NCBI RefSeq assembly: GCF_032191835.1
Contig: NC_083241.1
Location: 23,436,001-23,500,000 of the forward strand
Length of the DNA: 64,000 bases
Direction of reading: 5' to 3'
Source: Heteronotia binoei
Lineage: Eukaryota
A program made the position numbers. Position 1 is the first letter of the stretch. Each line of letters starts with the position of its first letter. Below are positions 6,001 to 16,900 of the stretch, piece by piece.

Positions 6001-9000
6001 TCCTCCTTGCTCAGGAATTCAATCTTGGCACAAAGACCCAGTTGAGACCAGGAAGACATGCTGTTGTTCAAGATGTTGGGAGAACTTTCTTCAAGACGAT
6101 ACACAGTGACTGGTTCTCCTGTAATGGCAGAGGACACAAATATCAGACACAGCTACCTGAAAGTGGGAAGAGGGTGTACCATGTGATTCAATAATTAGAG
6201 CTGTCAAAATGCAACTTTCTACCCTAGACACCATACCAGTGACCAGGGGTGGAATTCTAGCAGGAGCGCCTTTGCACATGAGGCCACACACCCCTGATGT
6301 AGCCAATCCTCCAAGAGCTTACAAAAAAGAGCCCTGTAAGCTCTTGGAGGATTGGCTATATCAGGTGGATGTGGACTAATATGCAAAGGAGCTCCTGCTA
6401 GAATTCCACCTCTTCCAGTGACCATTTTGTTAATGGATGCTTTTGTCACAATTGATATAAAATACTTTCAGAGTATACTGTCATCAGGGTGTTTTAGGGC
6501 AGTTATGGACAAGCAGGTGAGAAGACAAGATGTAGAAGAAACCATTTCCAGTGGGTCTTTTCATAATATATTCCTGGTATTCTCTGGCAACCCACAGACT
6601 ATTTTTAGAAGCTGTGAAGAACAAGTCTTTCATGTTTGGCTTTCGCAGTCAAGGAGCTAATCTTCCTGACCTTTGAAAGCCAGTGTTTACAGTTAGCCGT
6701 CTTACCTCTTGGAGGCACAGGGGTGAATGGGATGCTCTGTGACAACCTCATCAGATTATTTCTTTCAACAGCTGCAGAAAGGAGAAAGAAAATGTTGCAG
6801 AGCACTGGGTTAGTGAAGCAGCTACCACAACAGTGATCCGGCAGGCTCCCTGGTTCAAATCTTGTTTCTGCAGCAAACCTACTATATGGACTTTGGTGAG
6901 CTGCTTTCATTGTTGCTCATAACAATACTGGCCTGTTTTTCAGGGCTGTTGTCAAGGTTGCAACAAGGCAATACATGTGAAACGATGAAAGTGCTATTTC
7001 ACTGTGATTATTATTTTTGCTACCTTACAGAAATGTGCTGTTTCCACTTATTATCATGACTTGTAGCTTCTTAAGGATACTGACCTGAATAGTAGTAGGT
7101 GGAATCCATGATGGGCTTGAAAGGGGAAGCAATACCTAAAAGAAGACCAAGCAACTATTATATAGTTACATACACGTTCTGATTACATTTCTAAGATGTT
7201 GCATCAGTGCTTAGTTCTCGTGGCCCTTTCTTACACGCCCAGGGAAATGCTGTTCGCCACTTTGGGGTCAGGCAACAATTTTTCTCCAGGCCTATTTGGC
7301 CAGGGAACCTGGAGAGGTTTCCTCCACCCCGCCCCCCCCCCATCTTCTGAGCTAGGAGAAGGGTCACTGGGGATGTATGTGTGGGGGGGAGGTACTTGTG
7401 AATCTCCTGCATTATGCAGGAGGTTGGACTAGATGACCCTTGAGGTCGCTTTCAACTCTATGATTCTATGTATAGAAAAATGATATAGTATGTCTAAAAA
7501 GGAAACAGCCATTCTGTGTTTACAATTAACAAATACAGACTTGTTCACAAAATACAGAATGCTTTAACGATTGTAAGTTTACTGGACAGAACTATCCTAT
7601 CTAAATACATTACAAAAAGCTCCAAGAACATCTGCTTTACAACAAAGCACTGAATAACTTCACATAAATGTAATAAATGTGTCACCTTACTACCAAACTG
7701 CTTACCATTCAGAGCATCTTCTTCAGAAGACCTGTCAATGACAGAAATTTCAAATATCATTTTTAATCAAAAACTAGCAGATTCTAATGTTTAAGTTCTG
7801 TTTTTGTGCTCTCTCTCTCACAATTTGTGTGTGTTAACAAAAGAATTCAAAGTTACCGATGTGGTAATCTTAGGCACAGTAAAGGTGGCAGAATGGTCTG
7901 AACAAACACAGTCAGTTGCAATATCAAGGGGTCTTACTTACATCTGATTGCTGTATGAAGGTCGGCCTTGTACCCAGTCCTATAAGAAAAAAAACCTGAA
8001 GTTTTACATCTATGCAGTCCATTGCCTAACTGTTAGGTTTAGAACTACAGTGCCACCATTTTGGTGGTGGTATTTTTCCTCAAGTTGTTCTCAACATTGC
8101 TCTGTTGATCTATTAAAGGCAATGTAGATAATAATTATAGTTTTAATCTTTTTATTCAGCATTTCACCAGCATTTAAATACTTAGCAAGAATAAGACCTT
8201 AAAACTGACAAATGTTTAAAATAATTTCCAGGTTTTGAGGATGATTCAGACTTAGTGCAGGAGTTTGTTTAATTGTTAAAGATATTAAAGATGTAATCAT
8301 TGCTATTTTGAAAGTTTTTGCCTATTCCTTTAAAAACAGAACTCACCTCAGAATATTGTAATAATGATATTTTATTATCTGTTTCTGCATTTGACAACAT
8401 GTACTTTTACTAATACAGTTGATTTTACTTGTTGCATGTAATTATTCATATTATTTGAAAATTTCTGATAAATGTATTGGTCCCTACCTCTTTTTCCCCC
8501 TTCTGTACCCCACCTTTTCTTGATGGGAAAAAACCCCTTAATCATGAAAAAAAATCTGTTGATCAAAAGAAATCATTGTGTTCCTCACCCAAAGTGACTG
8601 CAGAGATCAAGTACGTCAACATAATCATTTTAGTGAAAAAACAGGTTTCCTACCTGTAACTGATGATCTTCGAGTGGTCATCTGTGCAGTCACACCAATG
8701 GGAGAGGCGCCGGCGCCGATCACGATCGGTAACTTCAAAGCCGCGGATTTCCGCGCCCCCGTCCCGGTGCGCATGCGCAGGCACCCCCCCTACTGCACAT
8801 GCCCAATGGGACAGGAGCGGACATCCCGCCAGTTCCTTCTGACCGCTGCAGGAGCCCTGGAGACGGACCCGCAGCAGTGGGGAAGGTGGGCGGGTAGTGT
8901 GACTGCACAGATGACCACTCGAAGATCATCAGTTACAGGTAGGAAACCTGTTTATCTTCTTCGTGGTCTCTGTGCATCACACCAATGGGAGAATAGCAAG

Positions 9001-13954: not shown

Positions 13955-16900
13955 TCCTGGGTGAGGTCCGAAGGACTGTCGTCTCTCACCAAGCACTGCG
14001 CCGAATCCAGATCTCGGTCGGAGGAGATCGCAATCTGCGTCGACATCGACTCGAGCGGCAGGTTCGGTCGATGGCGGATAGGAGAGGCCAGCAATTTTAA
14101 GGGTGGCAGGATCGGGGCCGAAAGGTCAGGCGGTGACGTTGGTGAAGGAGTCACAGGGACCTTCTTATGCTTCTGCTTATCAGATTTCTTCTTTGATCCC
14201 GCGGAGGCTCCCGTATCCTCCTTGGGCCTCTTCGCCGGCGTAGAGGTCTCCGATAACGATGCCGAGCCCGCTCTTTTCAGGGGGCGATCGGTATCGAGGG
14301 AGGTTTTGTCGGTATCGGCCACCGACATCGAGGATTTTGGCGCGCTTTCCGATGACGCCATGTTCCTCGGAGACAGCGCCTTTTCGACCAGGGCCGCAGC
14401 AAGACGAGCCGCTCGGTTTTTGCGGGTCTGCCGAGAAAATCTCGCGCAGTGGGTGCAGGAGTCCGGTTTGTGTGTTTCACCCAGACACAACAAACAAAGA
14501 GTGTGGCCGTCCGGAGGGGCGATTTTGCTGCCACACCGTCTGCACCGCTTGAAGAAGCCCCAGCGCTTTTCCATACGCGAAAAGCGTGGGGGTGAGGGGG
14601 GGAGGAAGGGAAGGGAAGGAAAAGGGGTACTAGAATCAGGAAGAAAATAACAAAATCACACTCCACCCCACTCACGAAGACGAAGAAGGCGATAACGCTA
14701 GAAGAGTCCGCACTGGAAAAACCAGCAAGGCTGAAGTATGTAATCCACCGACCGTAGGAAAGATCGACTGATCTCAACGGCGGTCAGAAGAGAACTGGCG
14801 GGATGTCCGCTCCTGTCCCGTTGGGCATGCGCAGTGGGGGGGGGGGGGTGCCTGCGCATGCGCACCGGGACGGGGGCGCGGAAATCCGCGGCTTTGAAGT
14901 TACCGATCGTGATCGGCGCCGGCGCCTCTCCCATTGGTGTGATGCACAGAGACCACGAAGAAGATCTGAGCAAGAATATGAGTTAATAATCCTTAAAACT
15001 GCAATCATCATGTAGTCCATTAAGATTTCTGTCCTACCCTAAACTACTGCATATCACATGAATGGCCCACCTGACCAGTTTCCTGACTGAAATGCAAAGA
15101 AGGAAGCCAGCAATCCCAGGCTCAACACAGACTGCTGGTGGAGTAACCCTAACACCACTCCATTAGCATTCAAAACCAAGAAGAGAAGGTGCAAACTGCT
15201 GCCATTTTGAATCATGATACAATTTGCTTAGAACCACACTCCTATTAGGCAGTAAGAAATGGACACAAAAGATGTGCCCAACAAATTCTTCAGAGGAATT
15301 TCAGGATGAACAAAAGAGACATGCCACTTTGGAGATGGCCTTCTCTGCAGGGCAACTTATTTGTACAAAGGTGCAACATGCAACACTATGTGACTCCACC
15401 TACTGTTTTCTTTCCATTACCACCGCTTCAACTTTGTAGGTTCCTGATTTCACACTGAACATGCAAAAGGAGCACCACAGAAGTAATATTACATGTTTCT
15501 CACCGTGAGTAAGGCTGCCTTAGAATCTGCCTGAGGAGACTCTTCAACTGATGTCTTTCTGCTCTTACTGTGCACTAGGAAATTGAATTCGGAATTAGGA
15601 TTGCTATGCAATTAGAAAAAAATTTAAAAAAACTGATGAATTAGCTTTTTAGTAGATCAATTTCATTTGAATAAATTTGCATGTTACCAGTGCTCCAGTA
15701 AACACTGAAGAAAGTGTCAGACAAAACGCTTTTATTTAAGAATAACGCCAAGAGCCAAAAAACTGCACACATTTTCACTTGAGACACCTCCCCCCTTGTC
15801 TCCTGGCAAACCTGTTCTAAAACTGATGGGAGCATCAGGAAGAGAGAAGCAATGGCTCAGATATGCATGGGTGGCTAATGCTGGAAAGAGAATGCAACCT
15901 CTTTAGTTAAAGCATTAATGAACCACCACCACCACCCCCCCCCCCCGCAAGCCTCCCTCTTTAAACATACAGAGGGGCTTTGCTTAGAATTTTAAAAATG
16001 TATTACTGCTGACTATTTTAAAGGTTTTAAAAATATTTTAAATGATGTATTGGTTTTATTATTATCTGTCTGGGGTCCCAATTTTCTGGGAGAAAGGTGT
16101 GTGTGATATAGCCTTGCAACACTATTCATAATTCATTGTGCATTCCAGAAAAGCATGCTTGTTTCTGAAATAAACACAGTGCAATTTTATTACGGTGACA
16201 GAGCTCAAAGGATCCTGCAGAGCAAGGTATTATTTTAAGAAATGAAGAGGACAGGACATGGGAGAAACCTAGCACTGTATTAAGGAGGAAAAATATTTCA
16301 AGAAAGAAGATGACTTTACCCCTACTTTAAAAATTAAAAAAAACCCCAAACCAATCATCATAAGCACACATGACACAGGAAGAGCTTGCATTTCTGCTCA
16401 AGAATTACTGTTACACTAGAACCCAGTTTACAAAATCCAGAGATTAAAAACTAAAAGAGCTCCTGCAAATACTCACATTGCTCTGAACGGCCGGCTATCA
16501 AGCTTCGATGGTATTCAGTGAAGCCGCCACATGAACTGACCTGTCTCAGGCTGCCTTCAGTGCCGCTACTGCCCTGCATGTTAGACAGACAAAAATGTTA
16601 TCAGCCATCACTCTATCGAAGTATTCAAGAGAGATTCTTTTCAGAGGTGACATGTGAATAGTGTTGCCTATGCTCACGGACATGGTGCATAAGAATCCCA
16701 AATGCCATGGTTCTACCTGCTGCCTTGTTGTCTCCATGCCTTCTAAAATTGCTTTTCTGAAATCCTCCTGTTGCTCCTATTTAAAAAAAAAAAGTACAAT
16801 CAAGGACTTCTCAGAATTTATTTCTTCTTGAAATGAAACTTCATTTCATTGTCATTTGTGACGGACAAATTTTAAAAATGCAAAATGTACTTTCCCCACA

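What the first reader, a model, noticed from the sequence alone, without database searches (positions are those of the whole stretch)
8639..14965. Structurally complete, young DIRS1-type retrotransposon between the TRPM7 channel and kinase exons
Seen: both ITRs are present, the 96-bp ICR matches both termini without a mismatch, CpG-rich ITRs are largely undecayed, and the pol and YR ORFs are open. The element makes up 6327 of the 7524 bp of intron 29. Established: this ITR+ICR layout defines DIRS1 elements, which integrate as circles through a tyrosine recombinase without a TSD. Inference: a recent, possibly polymorphic insertion in an essential gene, from a family that may still be active in this lizard.
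Basis: partly seen in the sequence, partly recalled or inferred. Interest (0 to 1): 0.68.

Follow-up and report, generated by a model that had tools for sequence, protein, structure and literature searches.

The report
DIRS1-like retrotransposon in TRPM7 intron
A 6.3-kb mobile element of the well-known DIRS1 type sits in an intron of a gecko's TRPM7 gene; it is well preserved and probably young, but one of its three genes is broken, so it is an ordinary transposon copy.

Summary
The element spans 8639-14965. A 96-nt internal complementary region (8897-8992) matches both termini 96 of 96. Inverted terminal repeats lie at 8666-8846 and 14780-14965, with a 27-nt right extension. CpG o/e is 0.9-1.05 in the termini against a background of 0.19. 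The pol and recombinase frames are open with catalytic residues kept. The host intron is exactly 7524 bp (7980-15503).

The element and TRPM7 both lie on the minus strand. The gag gene is broken by one nested insertion of an unrelated repeat fragment and by one frameshift. The conserved ITR parts differ by 3 substitutions and 2 indels.

The repeat layout nearly equals AcDIRS2 of Anolis carolinensis, so this is a new member of a known kind. A named NCBI protein puts the window in Heteronotia binoei.

"Young" is supported qualitatively. "Structurally complete" holds for termini, ICR, pol and YR, not for gag. "Polymorphic" and "family still active" could not be tested: no gecko genome, reads or orthologous introns were searchable. 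The nearest proteins found are only 51-58% identical. Interest is low.

The parts
8639..14965 (-). Whole DIRS1-like element (6327 bp, including one nested unrelated fragment inside the gag part)
   Evidence: Bounds are fixed by the ICR: identity to both termini stops exactly at 8638/8639 and 14965/14966. All element ORFs lie on the minus strand. GC is 54.9% and CpG o/e 0.74.
14780..14965 (-). Left (5') ITR in element orientation: outer divergent part about 14943-14965, inner conserved part 14780-14942
   Evidence: Alignment with the other terminus and blastn at 93% over 186 columns. CpG o/e is 1.05 over 14778-14965. Holds the palindrome TGCGCATGCGCA at 14853-14864.
12095..14574 (-). gag region, broken gene given as one part: one nested insertion of an unrelated plus-strand repeat fragment ending in a pure (ATT)28.7 microsatellite, and one frameshift. 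Runs from the ATG at 14574 to the stop (12095-12097) that closes the frame carrying the last gag homology.
   Evidence: 156 representative proteins match the C-side piece at E<=0.001. 35 of the 150 listed are >=300 aa. 26 of those 35 pass from one frame to another with contiguous protein coordinates, and 9 of 35 match in one frame. 5 of 35 also match the N-side piece, so both pieces were once one gene. Outer bounds of homology are 12152-14559. No Pfam family at E<=0.01. Microsatellite.
10055..12094 (-). pol ORF (679 codons open, first ATG at 12034, stop at 10055-10057), intact
   Evidence: Pfam hits. 0 stops and 1 frame against 10 named pol relatives, whose C-termini end where this one ends. 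99 invariant columns are shared with 11 named relatives. The PDB profile hits Ty3 RT/RNase H at E 1e-38.
11180..11665 (-). Reverse transcriptase domain of pol
   Evidence: Pfam RVT_1, E 4e-22, 79.4 bits against a cut-off of 29.6, residues 124-285 of the 659-aa ORF. The YIDD motif is in the translation.
10625..10846 (-). RNase H domain of pol
   Evidence: Pfam RT_RNaseH, E 1.3e-5, 25.7 bits against a cut-off of 24.8, residues 397-470.
10058..10480 (-). Methyltransferase-like C-terminal domain of pol (141 codons)
   Evidence: Weak Pfam Dam (PF05869) match, E 0.0092, 16.1 bits, below the 28.1 cut-off. Aligns without large gaps to the C-termini of 11 named relatives. No PDB sequence match beyond profile position 560.
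9036..10472 (-). Tyrosine recombinase ORF (478 codons plus stop), intact. It overlaps pol by 418 nt. An ATG at 10058-10056 overlaps the pol stop (ATGA) and opens a 340-codon form (9039-10058).
   Evidence: Pfam Phage_int_SAM_1, E 7.6e-5, 23.3 bits against a cut-off of 22.3 (9834-10028). 252 relatives, many of 337-345 aa. R153, K185, H282, R285, W308 and Y318 are invariant in 14 of 14 sequences. 0 stops and 1 frame against 6 named relatives. The PDB profile hits Cre/Tre recombinase at E 4e-7 to 1e-5.
8897..8992 (-). Internal complementary region: left half 8954-8992 (39 nt, complement of the 5' terminus) and right half 8897-8953 (57 nt, complement of the 3' terminus)
   Evidence: 100% over 39 and 57 nt. 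The halves abut without overlap. The junction reads GAT|AAA on the element strand.
8666..8846 (-). Right (3') ITR in element orientation
   Evidence: CpG o/e is 0.91 over 8639-8852. Palindrome at 8768-8779.
8639..8665 (-). Right extension (27 nt): complementary to the ICR only, with no partner in the other terminus
   Evidence: Alignment A1 shows 27 unmatched terminal bases at this end. They are covered by the 57-nt ICR match.
7980..15503 (-). Host intron of TRPM7 (7524 bp, GT..AG). The element lies 538 bp from the donor and 659 bp from the acceptor, in the same orientation as the gene.
   Evidence: Flanking exons 15504-15574 and 7942-7979 were read against the named Heteronotia binoei TRPM7 protein P0241.
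20151..21251 (-). TRPM7 exon holding the coiled-coil (tetramerisation) domain, a landmark upstream of the intron
   Evidence: Pfam TRPM_tetra, E 2.3e-18. PDB TRPM7 chains, E 1.7e-43. 100% identity to P0241 residues 1207-1573.
1624..1848 (-). TRPM7 alpha-kinase exon, a landmark downstream of the intron
   Evidence: Pfam Alpha_kinase, E 3.4e-21, 76.6 bits against a cut-off of 21.3. Matches P0241 residues 1852-1926.

Best explanation
This is one genomic copy of a DIRS1-like (tyrosine-recombinase) retrotransposon, inserted in the sense orientation in the 7524-bp intron between the coiled-coil and kinase parts of TRPM7 in the gecko Heteronotia binoei. Shown: the full terminal apparatus (two ITRs, a 27-nt right extension, and an ICR that is the exact complement of the joined ends), an intact pol (RT, RNase H, methyltransferase-like tail) and an intact tyrosine recombinase with the Cre-type catalytic residues. 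Also shown: gag is broken once by a nested unrelated repeat fragment and once by a frameshift. Inferred from what is established for the family: such elements are transcribed from within the left ITR, reverse-transcribed, have their full ends rebuilt on the ICR, and are inserted by the recombinase without a target-site duplication. The perfect ICR-to-terminus match, the high CpG content and the two intact long frames point to an evolutionarily young insertion, of the order of a few million years or less. With gag broken, the copy as it stands cannot supply the full protein set. It is best read as a tolerated, decaying intronic insertion, across which the annotated TRPM7 model splices.
For: Repeat anatomy. 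No target-site duplication. Domains: RVT_1 4e-22, RT_RNaseH 1.3e-5, Phage_int_SAM_1 7.6e-5; weak Dam hit 0.009; Ty3 RT/RH 1e-38; Cre/Tre 4e-7. YR catalytic residues are invariant in 14 of 14 sequences. pol shares 99 invariant columns with 11 named relatives. pol and YR show 0 stops and native ends. gag breaks: 26 of 35 relatives change frame and 5 of 35 bridge both pieces. CpG o/e is 0.74 against 0.19. Host gene and intron. Layout nearly equal to Anolis AcDIRS2, which has divergent ITR 26, conserved ITR 136, rE 28, ICR 39-60, junction AAA and a long ORF overlap; here the values are 24, 163, 27, 39-57, AAA and yes (PMC3266345 Table 3). The ICR is essential and the proteins act in trans in Dictyostelium (PMC7192593).
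Against: The age is not measured. The neutral and CpG rates used are recalled, not taken from a call. Only 3 substitutions carry the estimate. Xenopus family sequences also show a few ITR differences (PMC9210276), so the ITR differences here may be inherited rather than acquired after insertion. The gag breaks could predate this insertion if a defective copy was moved in trans. The 3-bp junction rule is not met: TTT is found at the 3' end and again in the adjoining flank, but not at the 5' end. The methyltransferase assignment rests on a sub-threshold Pfam match plus the literature. No other copy of the family was seen (one search covers only this window; the best proteins are 51-58% identical). 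Nothing here shows that the element is transcribed or that TRPM7 splicing is unaffected.
Confidence: 0.8

Rival explanations
1. Very recent, possibly still segregating insertion from a family that is active now. On this reading the gag breaks and ITR differences were already present in the source copy, which was moved with proteins supplied by other copies.
For: 96 of 96 ICR-to-terminus identity. CpG o/e near 1 in the termini. pol and YR are intact. Trans action of DIRS-1 proteins is shown in Dictyostelium (PMC7192593). ITR differences exist within Xenopus family sequences (PMC9210276).
Against: 2 of the 3 substitutions between the conserved ITR parts are CpG/TpG-type differences, as expected from decay in place. 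A nested insertion plus a frameshift in one gene suggests time spent at this locus. No second copy was available for comparison.
Confidence: 0.2
2. Older, fixed copy whose CpG content and open frames are kept by lack of germline methylation, by GC-biased conversion, or by selection on pol and YR.
For: CpG retention alone does not date a sequence. The element is GC-rich in a 41% GC region.
Against: Non-coding ICR and termini are identical at 96 of 96 positions with no known host function. gag is decaying while pol and YR are not, which fits short time better than selection. Background CpG o/e of 0.19 shows strong CpG loss in the neighbourhood.
Confidence: 0.08
3. A different kind of element: Ngaro/PAT/Viper (split direct repeats), a Ty3/Gypsy LTR element, or a Crypton DNA transposon.
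For: The RT/RNase H is closest to Ty3 in the PDB. A tyrosine recombinase also occurs in Ngaro, PAT and Crypton (PMC3266345; listing of PMC3212892).
Against: 0 direct-repeat families of 20 nt or more in 8000-15600. Inverted termini plus an ICR are present. An RT is present, so it is not a Crypton. No DDE integrase domain was found in any ORF. No target-site duplication.
Confidence: 0.02
4. Assembly artefact: a DIRS copy from elsewhere wrongly placed in this intron.
For: Repeats can be misplaced in assemblies. The window has one N run (56102-56317), far from the element.
Against: The junctions coincide to the base with the ends predicted by the element's own ICR. The flanks are unique intron sequence that continues into correctly spliced exons.
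Confidence: 0.02

Closest known systems
AcDIRS2 and AcDIRS1 of Anolis carolinensis (Piednoel et al. 2011, PMC3266345, Table 3 rows seen)
   Same: Same layout and almost the same dimensions. AcDIRS2 has divergent ITR 26, conserved ITR 136, right extension 28, ICR halves 39-60, junction AAA, a long pol/YR overlap and a size of 5997 bp. Here the values are 24, 163, 27, 39-57, AAA and an overlap of 418 nt. The size is 6327 bp including a nested fragment of roughly 0.8 kb. Only a right extension is present, as in most elements.
   Different: No sequence comparison was possible, because the Anolis elements were not available to any tool. The nearest Anolis proteins found are about 50% identical in YR. 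This copy lacks the start trinucleotide, and its conserved ITR parts are not strictly complementary.
Xenopus DIRS-like families (Gazolla et al. 2021, PMC9210276; abstract and section 7 seen)
   Same: Three ORFs with pol/YR overlap, a DAM/MT domain in ORF2, ITRs with a few substitutions or indels between them, a two-part ICR, and TTT termini. Recent amplification waves are known in that genus.
   Different: A LAP2alpha domain was predicted in the gag of all Xenopus families but was not detected here. TTT is seen only at the 3' end here.
DIRS-1 of Dictyostelium discoideum (Malicki et al. 2020, PMC7192593; abstract and Discussion part 1 seen)
   Same: The founding member: ITRs, an ICR near the right end, and gag, pol and YR. 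The mechanism inferred here is taken from it: the ICR is essential downstream of first-strand synthesis, and the proteins act in trans.
   Different: Very distant host and sequence. Nothing about mobility was tested for the gecko element.
Uncharacterized YR-like proteins of the leopard gecko Eublepharis macularius (P0122, P0123, P0125)
   Same: Nearest named relatives of the recombinase, at 53-56% identity and 98-99% coverage. Like the 478-codon frame here, they extend N-terminally into the stretch that overlaps pol.
   Different: Only about half the residues are identical, so they belong to another family of the same superfamily. Their genomic context is unknown.

Membership tests
DIRS1-like superfamily (DIRS order) | Inverted terminal repeats | tested here: met
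   8666-8846 vs 14780-14965: 169 of 187 columns match overall, and 154 of 163 in the inner part.
DIRS1-like superfamily (DIRS order) | Internal complementary region near the 3' end, made of two halves complementary to the two termini | tested here: met
   8897-8992: 39 + 57 nt, 96 of 96 complementary, lying between the YR stop (9036) and the right ITR.
DIRS1-like superfamily (DIRS order) | Terminal extension complementary to the ICR only (right extension, 9-75 bp in PMC3266345) | tested here: met
   27 nt, 8639-8665.
DIRS1-like superfamily (DIRS order) | ITR split into a short divergent outer part (50-85% identity) and a strictly complementary conserved part | tested here: inconclusive
   The outer part has 24 columns with 15 matches (62%), which fits. 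The inner part has 154 of 163 matches with 3 substitutions and 2 gap runs, so it is not strictly complementary in this copy. This could be decay in place or inherited differences.
DIRS1-like superfamily (DIRS order) | ICR halves overlap on a 3-bp circular junction, and the element begins and ends with the matching trinucleotide | tested here: not met
   The junction reads AAA on the element strand, as in AcDIRS2, and the 3' end is TTT. But the halves abut with 0 overlap, the 5' end starts ATC after a flank ending CAG, and a second TTT lies in the 3' flank.
DIRS1-like superfamily (DIRS order) | pol with RT and RNase H related to Ty3/Gypsy | tested here: met
   RVT_1 4e-22 and RT_RNaseH 1.3e-5, both above their cut-offs. 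The PDB profile hits Ty3 RT/RH at 1e-38.
DIRS1-like superfamily (DIRS order) | Methyltransferase-like domain after RNase H (absent from Ngaro and Viper) | tested here: inconclusive
   141-codon tail with Pfam Dam at E 0.0092 and 16.1 bits, below the 28.1 cut-off. It is conserved against 11 named relatives. A fold test could not be run.
DIRS1-like superfamily (DIRS order) | Tyrosine recombinase ORF with catalytic residues, overlapping pol | tested here: met
   The SAM-like domain is above its cut-off. R-K-H-R-W-Y, including the HSTR motif, is invariant in 14 of 14 sequences. Cre/Tre profile hits. 418-nt overlap with pol.
DIRS1-like superfamily (DIRS order) | gag ORF upstream of pol | tested here: met
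   156 representative proteins match at E<=0.001, and 5 of 35 long ones bridge both pieces. The gene is broken (1 insertion, 1 frameshift). The LAP2alpha domain reported in Xenopus gag was not detected.
DIRS1-like superfamily (DIRS order) | No target-site duplication | tested here: met
   The flanks ...agtgaaa and ctgagca... share no repeat.
Autonomous (coding-complete) copy | All three genes uninterrupted | tested here: not met
   pol and YR are intact. gag is broken twice.
Ngaro / PAT / Viper (other YR retrotransposons) | Split direct repeats instead of ITR + ICR | tested here: not met
   0 direct-repeat families of 20 nt or more in 8000-15600.
Ty3/Gypsy LTR retrotransposons | Direct LTRs, DDE integrase, target-site duplication | tested here: not met
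   No direct repeats, no integrase domain in any of 7 ORFs scanned, no duplication.
Crypton (YR DNA transposons) | Tyrosine recombinase without reverse transcriptase | tested here: not met
   An RT is present.
Recently active family in this genome | Several near-identical copies; presence/absence variation at this site | not testable with these tools
   No eukaryotic genome or read collection was open. There is no other copy in the 64-kb window. The best proteins are 51% (pol) and 58% (YR) identical.

The most novel reading that the evidence does not exclude
The family is live in Heteronotia binoei, a species complex that includes hybrid parthenogens (recalled). This sense-oriented insertion between the TRPM7 channel and kinase exons would then be a segregating allele, and its internal poly(A)-type signals (2 AATAAA and 2 ATTAAA on the gene's strand) would sometimes yield kinase-less TRPM7 transcripts. 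It would be a natural variant that uncouples channel from kinase.
Probability: 0.07. Interest if true: 0.5.

Novelty: new member of a known kind. Interest (0 to 1): 0.18.

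Why it matters
DIRS1-like elements are common in squamates: 775 sequences in 42 families in Anolis carolinensis (PMC3266345). They are absent from birds, mammals and alligator (PMC4350176). One more well-preserved copy in a gecko intron is therefore expected. Its value is practical. It is a cleanly bounded reference copy with a perfect ICR for annotating this family in gekkotan genomes, and a candidate presence/absence marker in Heteronotia. It is also a reminder that an element whose termini look complete may still have a broken gag. 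It opens no long-standing question.

Tried and rejected
(1) Other copies in the window: self-blastn returned 9 rows, all either the self match or the ITR/ICR pairs.

(2) Close relatives in the protein collections: pol gave 1017 hits at 51% identity or less and YR gave 252 hits at 58% or less. No near-identical protein was found, which says little because annotated genomes mask repeats.

(3) Rfam at gathering thresholds over the whole window: 0 matches.

(4) Pfam on the two gag pieces, the gag tail frame and the nested fragment's ORF: nothing at E<=0.01. At E<=10 there was only chance-level noise, TRAPP14_C at 0.75 and zf-RING_5 at 0.94. The nested fragment therefore stays unclassified. My reading of it as a 5'-truncated LINE 3' end (ORF tail, AT-rich stretch, microsatellite tail) is recalled, not tested.

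(5) The ESM Atlas look-up for the nested ORF was not available.

(6) The structure prediction of the methyltransferase-like domain was not available, so no fold search was made.

(7) Kinase exons: 150 of 161 minus-strand open frames of 28 codons or more in 1-8700 and 14900-20100 were scanned; the last 11 were left out by the size cap. One was above its cut-off (Alpha_kinase); the other 7 listed hits were below cut-off.

The phage, plasmid and E. coli collections are irrelevant.

(9) Literature: 'DIRS' + 'gecko' + 'transposable elements' gave 7 papers, none on gecko DIRS elements by title or abstract start. 'Heteronotia binoei' + 'genome assembly' gave 18 papers, none describing its repeats by title. 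PMC9099904 holds nothing on DIRS base composition.

(10) Considered and rejected: Ngaro/PAT, LTR element, Crypton and assembly artefact (see rivals).

Full report
**What is there.**
The stretch 8639-14965 is GC-rich: 54.9% against about 41% around it. All of its long reading frames lie on the minus strand.

The repeat finder found four inverted pairs and no direct repeat of 20 nt or more in 8000-15600. Self-blastn of the element against the whole window returned only the self match and these pairs, 9 rows in all.

The pairs resolve into the DIRS1 layout.
- The two ends share inverted repeats, 8666-8846 and 14780-14965.
- The low-coordinate end carries 27 further bases (8639-8665) with no partner in the other end.
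- An internal 96-nt block (8897-8992) is the exact complement of 8639-8695 (57 nt) followed by 14927-14965 (39 nt).

The block is therefore the complement of the right end joined to the left end. The flanks share no duplicated bases.

**Repeat detail.**
In the alignment of the two termini:
- The outer ITR part has 24 columns with 15 matches.
- The inner part has 163 columns with 154 matches, 3 substitutions and 2 gap runs (6 columns).
- Read, 2 of the 3 substitutions are CpG in one ITR against TpG or CpA in the other.

On the element's own strand the ICR halves are 39 and 57 nt, and they meet at GAT|AAA.

Table 3 of Piednoel et al. 2011 (PMC3266345; passages seen) lists the Anolis carolinensis element AcDIRS2. 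It has divergent ITR 26, conserved ITR 136, right extension 28, ICR 39-60, junction AAA and a long ORF overlap. This is almost the same design.

One rule of the family is not met here. The element should begin and end with the trinucleotide that matches the junction. Here TTT closes the 3' end and a second TTT follows in the flank, but the 5' end starts ATC after a flank ending CAG. The two ICR halves abut without overlap. I leave that unexplained. A chance TTT in a 31% GC flank is not rare.

**Genes.**

*pol.* It is open for 679 codons (10058-12094; first ATG at 12034).
- Pfam gives RVT_1 (E 4e-22) and RT_RNaseH (E 1.3e-5), both above their cut-offs.
- A profile of pol with 11 named relatives hits the Ty3 RT/RNase H structures at E 1e-38.
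- The window's pol shares all 99 invariant columns of that alignment.
- It ends where the relatives end, with 0 internal stops and one frame against 10 named pol relatives.
- Its last 141 codons give only a weak Dam methyltransferase match: E 0.0092, 16.1 bits, against a cut-off of 28.1. The literature calls this the MT or DAM domain of DIRS-like pol. I rate that feature inconclusive, because the structure prediction that would have tested it was not available.

*Recombinase.* The frame is open for 478 codons (9039-10472) and overlaps pol by 418 nt.
- An ATG at 10058-10056 overlaps the pol stop and opens a 340-codon form.
- Relatives of 337-345 aa align to it end to end.
- Pfam finds the SAM-like core-binding domain above its cut-off.
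- Aligned with 13 named relatives, R153, K185, H282, R285, W308 and Y318 are invariant in 14 of 14 sequences.
- The profile hits Cre and Tre recombinases at E 4e-7 to 1e-5.

*gag.* The region 12095-14574 is broken. An unrelated fragment lies inside it on the opposite strand. The fragment consists of an ORF tail, an AT-rich stretch and a pure (ATT)28.7 microsatellite.
- The C-side piece has 156 relatives at E<=0.001 among 1.84 billion representatives.
- I used the 35 of the 150 listed that are 300 aa or longer.
- 26 of those 35 pass from one frame to another with contiguous protein coordinates (median overlap 5.5 residues). The other 9 match in one frame.
- 5 of 35 also match the N-side piece.

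gag was therefore once a single gene. It now carries one insertion and one frameshift. Whether the frames agree across the insertion was not examined.

**Host gene.**
The window is TRPM7 on the minus strand.
- TRPM2-like domain in 38183-38605 and the tetramerisation domain in 20019-21308.
- PDB TRPM7 chains at E 1.7e-43.
- Alpha-kinase in 1612-1872 (150 of 161 candidate frames scanned).

A search with the single large exon-bearing frame returned the named NCBI protein 'TRPM7 [Heteronotia binoei]' at 100% identity (P0241). H. binoei is a gekkonid. tblastn of P0241 gave 36 matches covering residues 2-1949.

The exons beside the element are 15504-15574 and 7942-7979. 29 matches lie upstream, which agrees with 'intron 29'.

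The element lies in the same orientation as the gene, 538 bp from the donor and 659 bp from the acceptor.

I searched exon by exon only. The step of joining the exons into one model was left out. The N run 56102-56317 was left alone.

**How it most likely works.**
Established for the family:
- The ICR serves to rebuild complete ends from a shorter transcript.
- In Dictyostelium it is experimentally essential, downstream of first-strand synthesis.
- The cDNA seen there is mostly linear and single-stranded, and the proteins act in trans (Malicki et al. 2020, PMC7192593; abstract and Discussion part 1 seen).
- The closed circle and recombinase-mediated insertion without target duplication remain the model.

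Cappello 1985 and Poulter and Goodwin 2005 are cited there; I did not see them.

Inferred for this copy: it arrived by that route, and it keeps every cis feature plus pol and YR. With gag broken, it cannot supply the whole protein set itself.

**Age.**
Three lines argue for youth:
- 96 of 96 ICR identity.
- CpG o/e of 0.91 and 1.05 in the termini and 0.74 overall, against a median of 0.19 (maximum 0.45) in 55 background bins.
- Two intact frames of 679 and 478 codons.

Suppose the conserved ITR parts were identical at insertion, as PMC3266345 describes for reference elements. Then 3 substitutions in 157 aligned bases is 1.9%. With recalled squamate rates of about 1-2e-9 per site per year, and faster CpG decay, that suggests a few million years or less.

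The estimate is weak. It rests on three events and on recalled rates. Xenopus family sequences also show a few ITR differences (PMC9210276 section 7), so these differences may be inherited. The two gag breaks suggest either time spent in place or a defective source copy.

**What stayed unchecked.**
- Copy number and divergence in the genome.
- Presence/absence at this site.
- The orthologous intron in other geckos.
- Transcription and methylation.

The best proteins found are 51% (pol, 1017 hits) and 58% (YR, 252 hits) identical. The nearest named ones come from Pogona vitticeps (46%) and Eublepharis macularius (53-56%). Supplementary files of the two DIRS surveys were closed.

**Verdict.**
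- DIRS1-like: yes.
- In TRPM7 between the channel and kinase exons: yes.
- Young: probably.
- Structurally complete: not for gag.
- Polymorphic or from an active family: unknown.

DIRS1-like elements are abundant in lizards, with 775 sequences in 42 families in Anolis, and are absent from birds, mammals and alligator (PMC4350176 passages). This is a new member of a known kind, and interest is low.

Noticed in passing
inside the gag part, window 12095-14574: A nested fragment of an unrelated repeat lies on the plus strand: an open ORF tail of about 160 codons with no Pfam match, an AT-rich stretch and a pure (ATT)28.7 microsatellite. Its CpG o/e of 0.53 is also above background. My reading of it as a 5'-truncated LINE 3' end is recalled, not tested. 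No second copy lies in the window.
   Followed up: partly
window 8768-8779 and 14853-14864 (also 14822-14833 with 1 mismatch): The perfect 12-nt palindrome TGCGCATGCGCA occurs once in each ITR. There are 3 matches at 1 mismatch or fewer, against 0.02 expected. From memory it resembles an NRF1-type promoter site. This could bear on ITR promoter activity but is untested.
   Followed up: partly
window 10055-10058: The pol stop codon and an in-frame ATG of the recombinase frame overlap (ATGA). The 340-codon form that starts there has the length of many relatives of 337-345 aa.
   Followed up: partly
window 8636-8641 and 14963-14968: On the element strand the 3' end TTT is followed by a second TTT in the flank, while the 5' end has none. 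The family's rule of one junction trinucleotide at each end is not met.
   Followed up: partly
window 28411-28739: A 73-bp tandem repeat of 4.5 copies with 88% matches lies in a GC-rich (57.7%) stretch of another TRPM7 intron. It is not related to the element by blastn.
   Followed up: no
window 20151-21251: The H. binoei TRPM7 model (2021 aa) uses all 367 codons of this exon. Models from several other geckos and lizards of about 1820-1890 aa cover only 54% of the query at 80-94% identity, which suggests an alternative internal splice or differing annotation.
   Followed up: no
window 56102-56317: A run of 216 N lies in an intron between two TRPM7 exon matches. It was left untouched.
   Followed up: no
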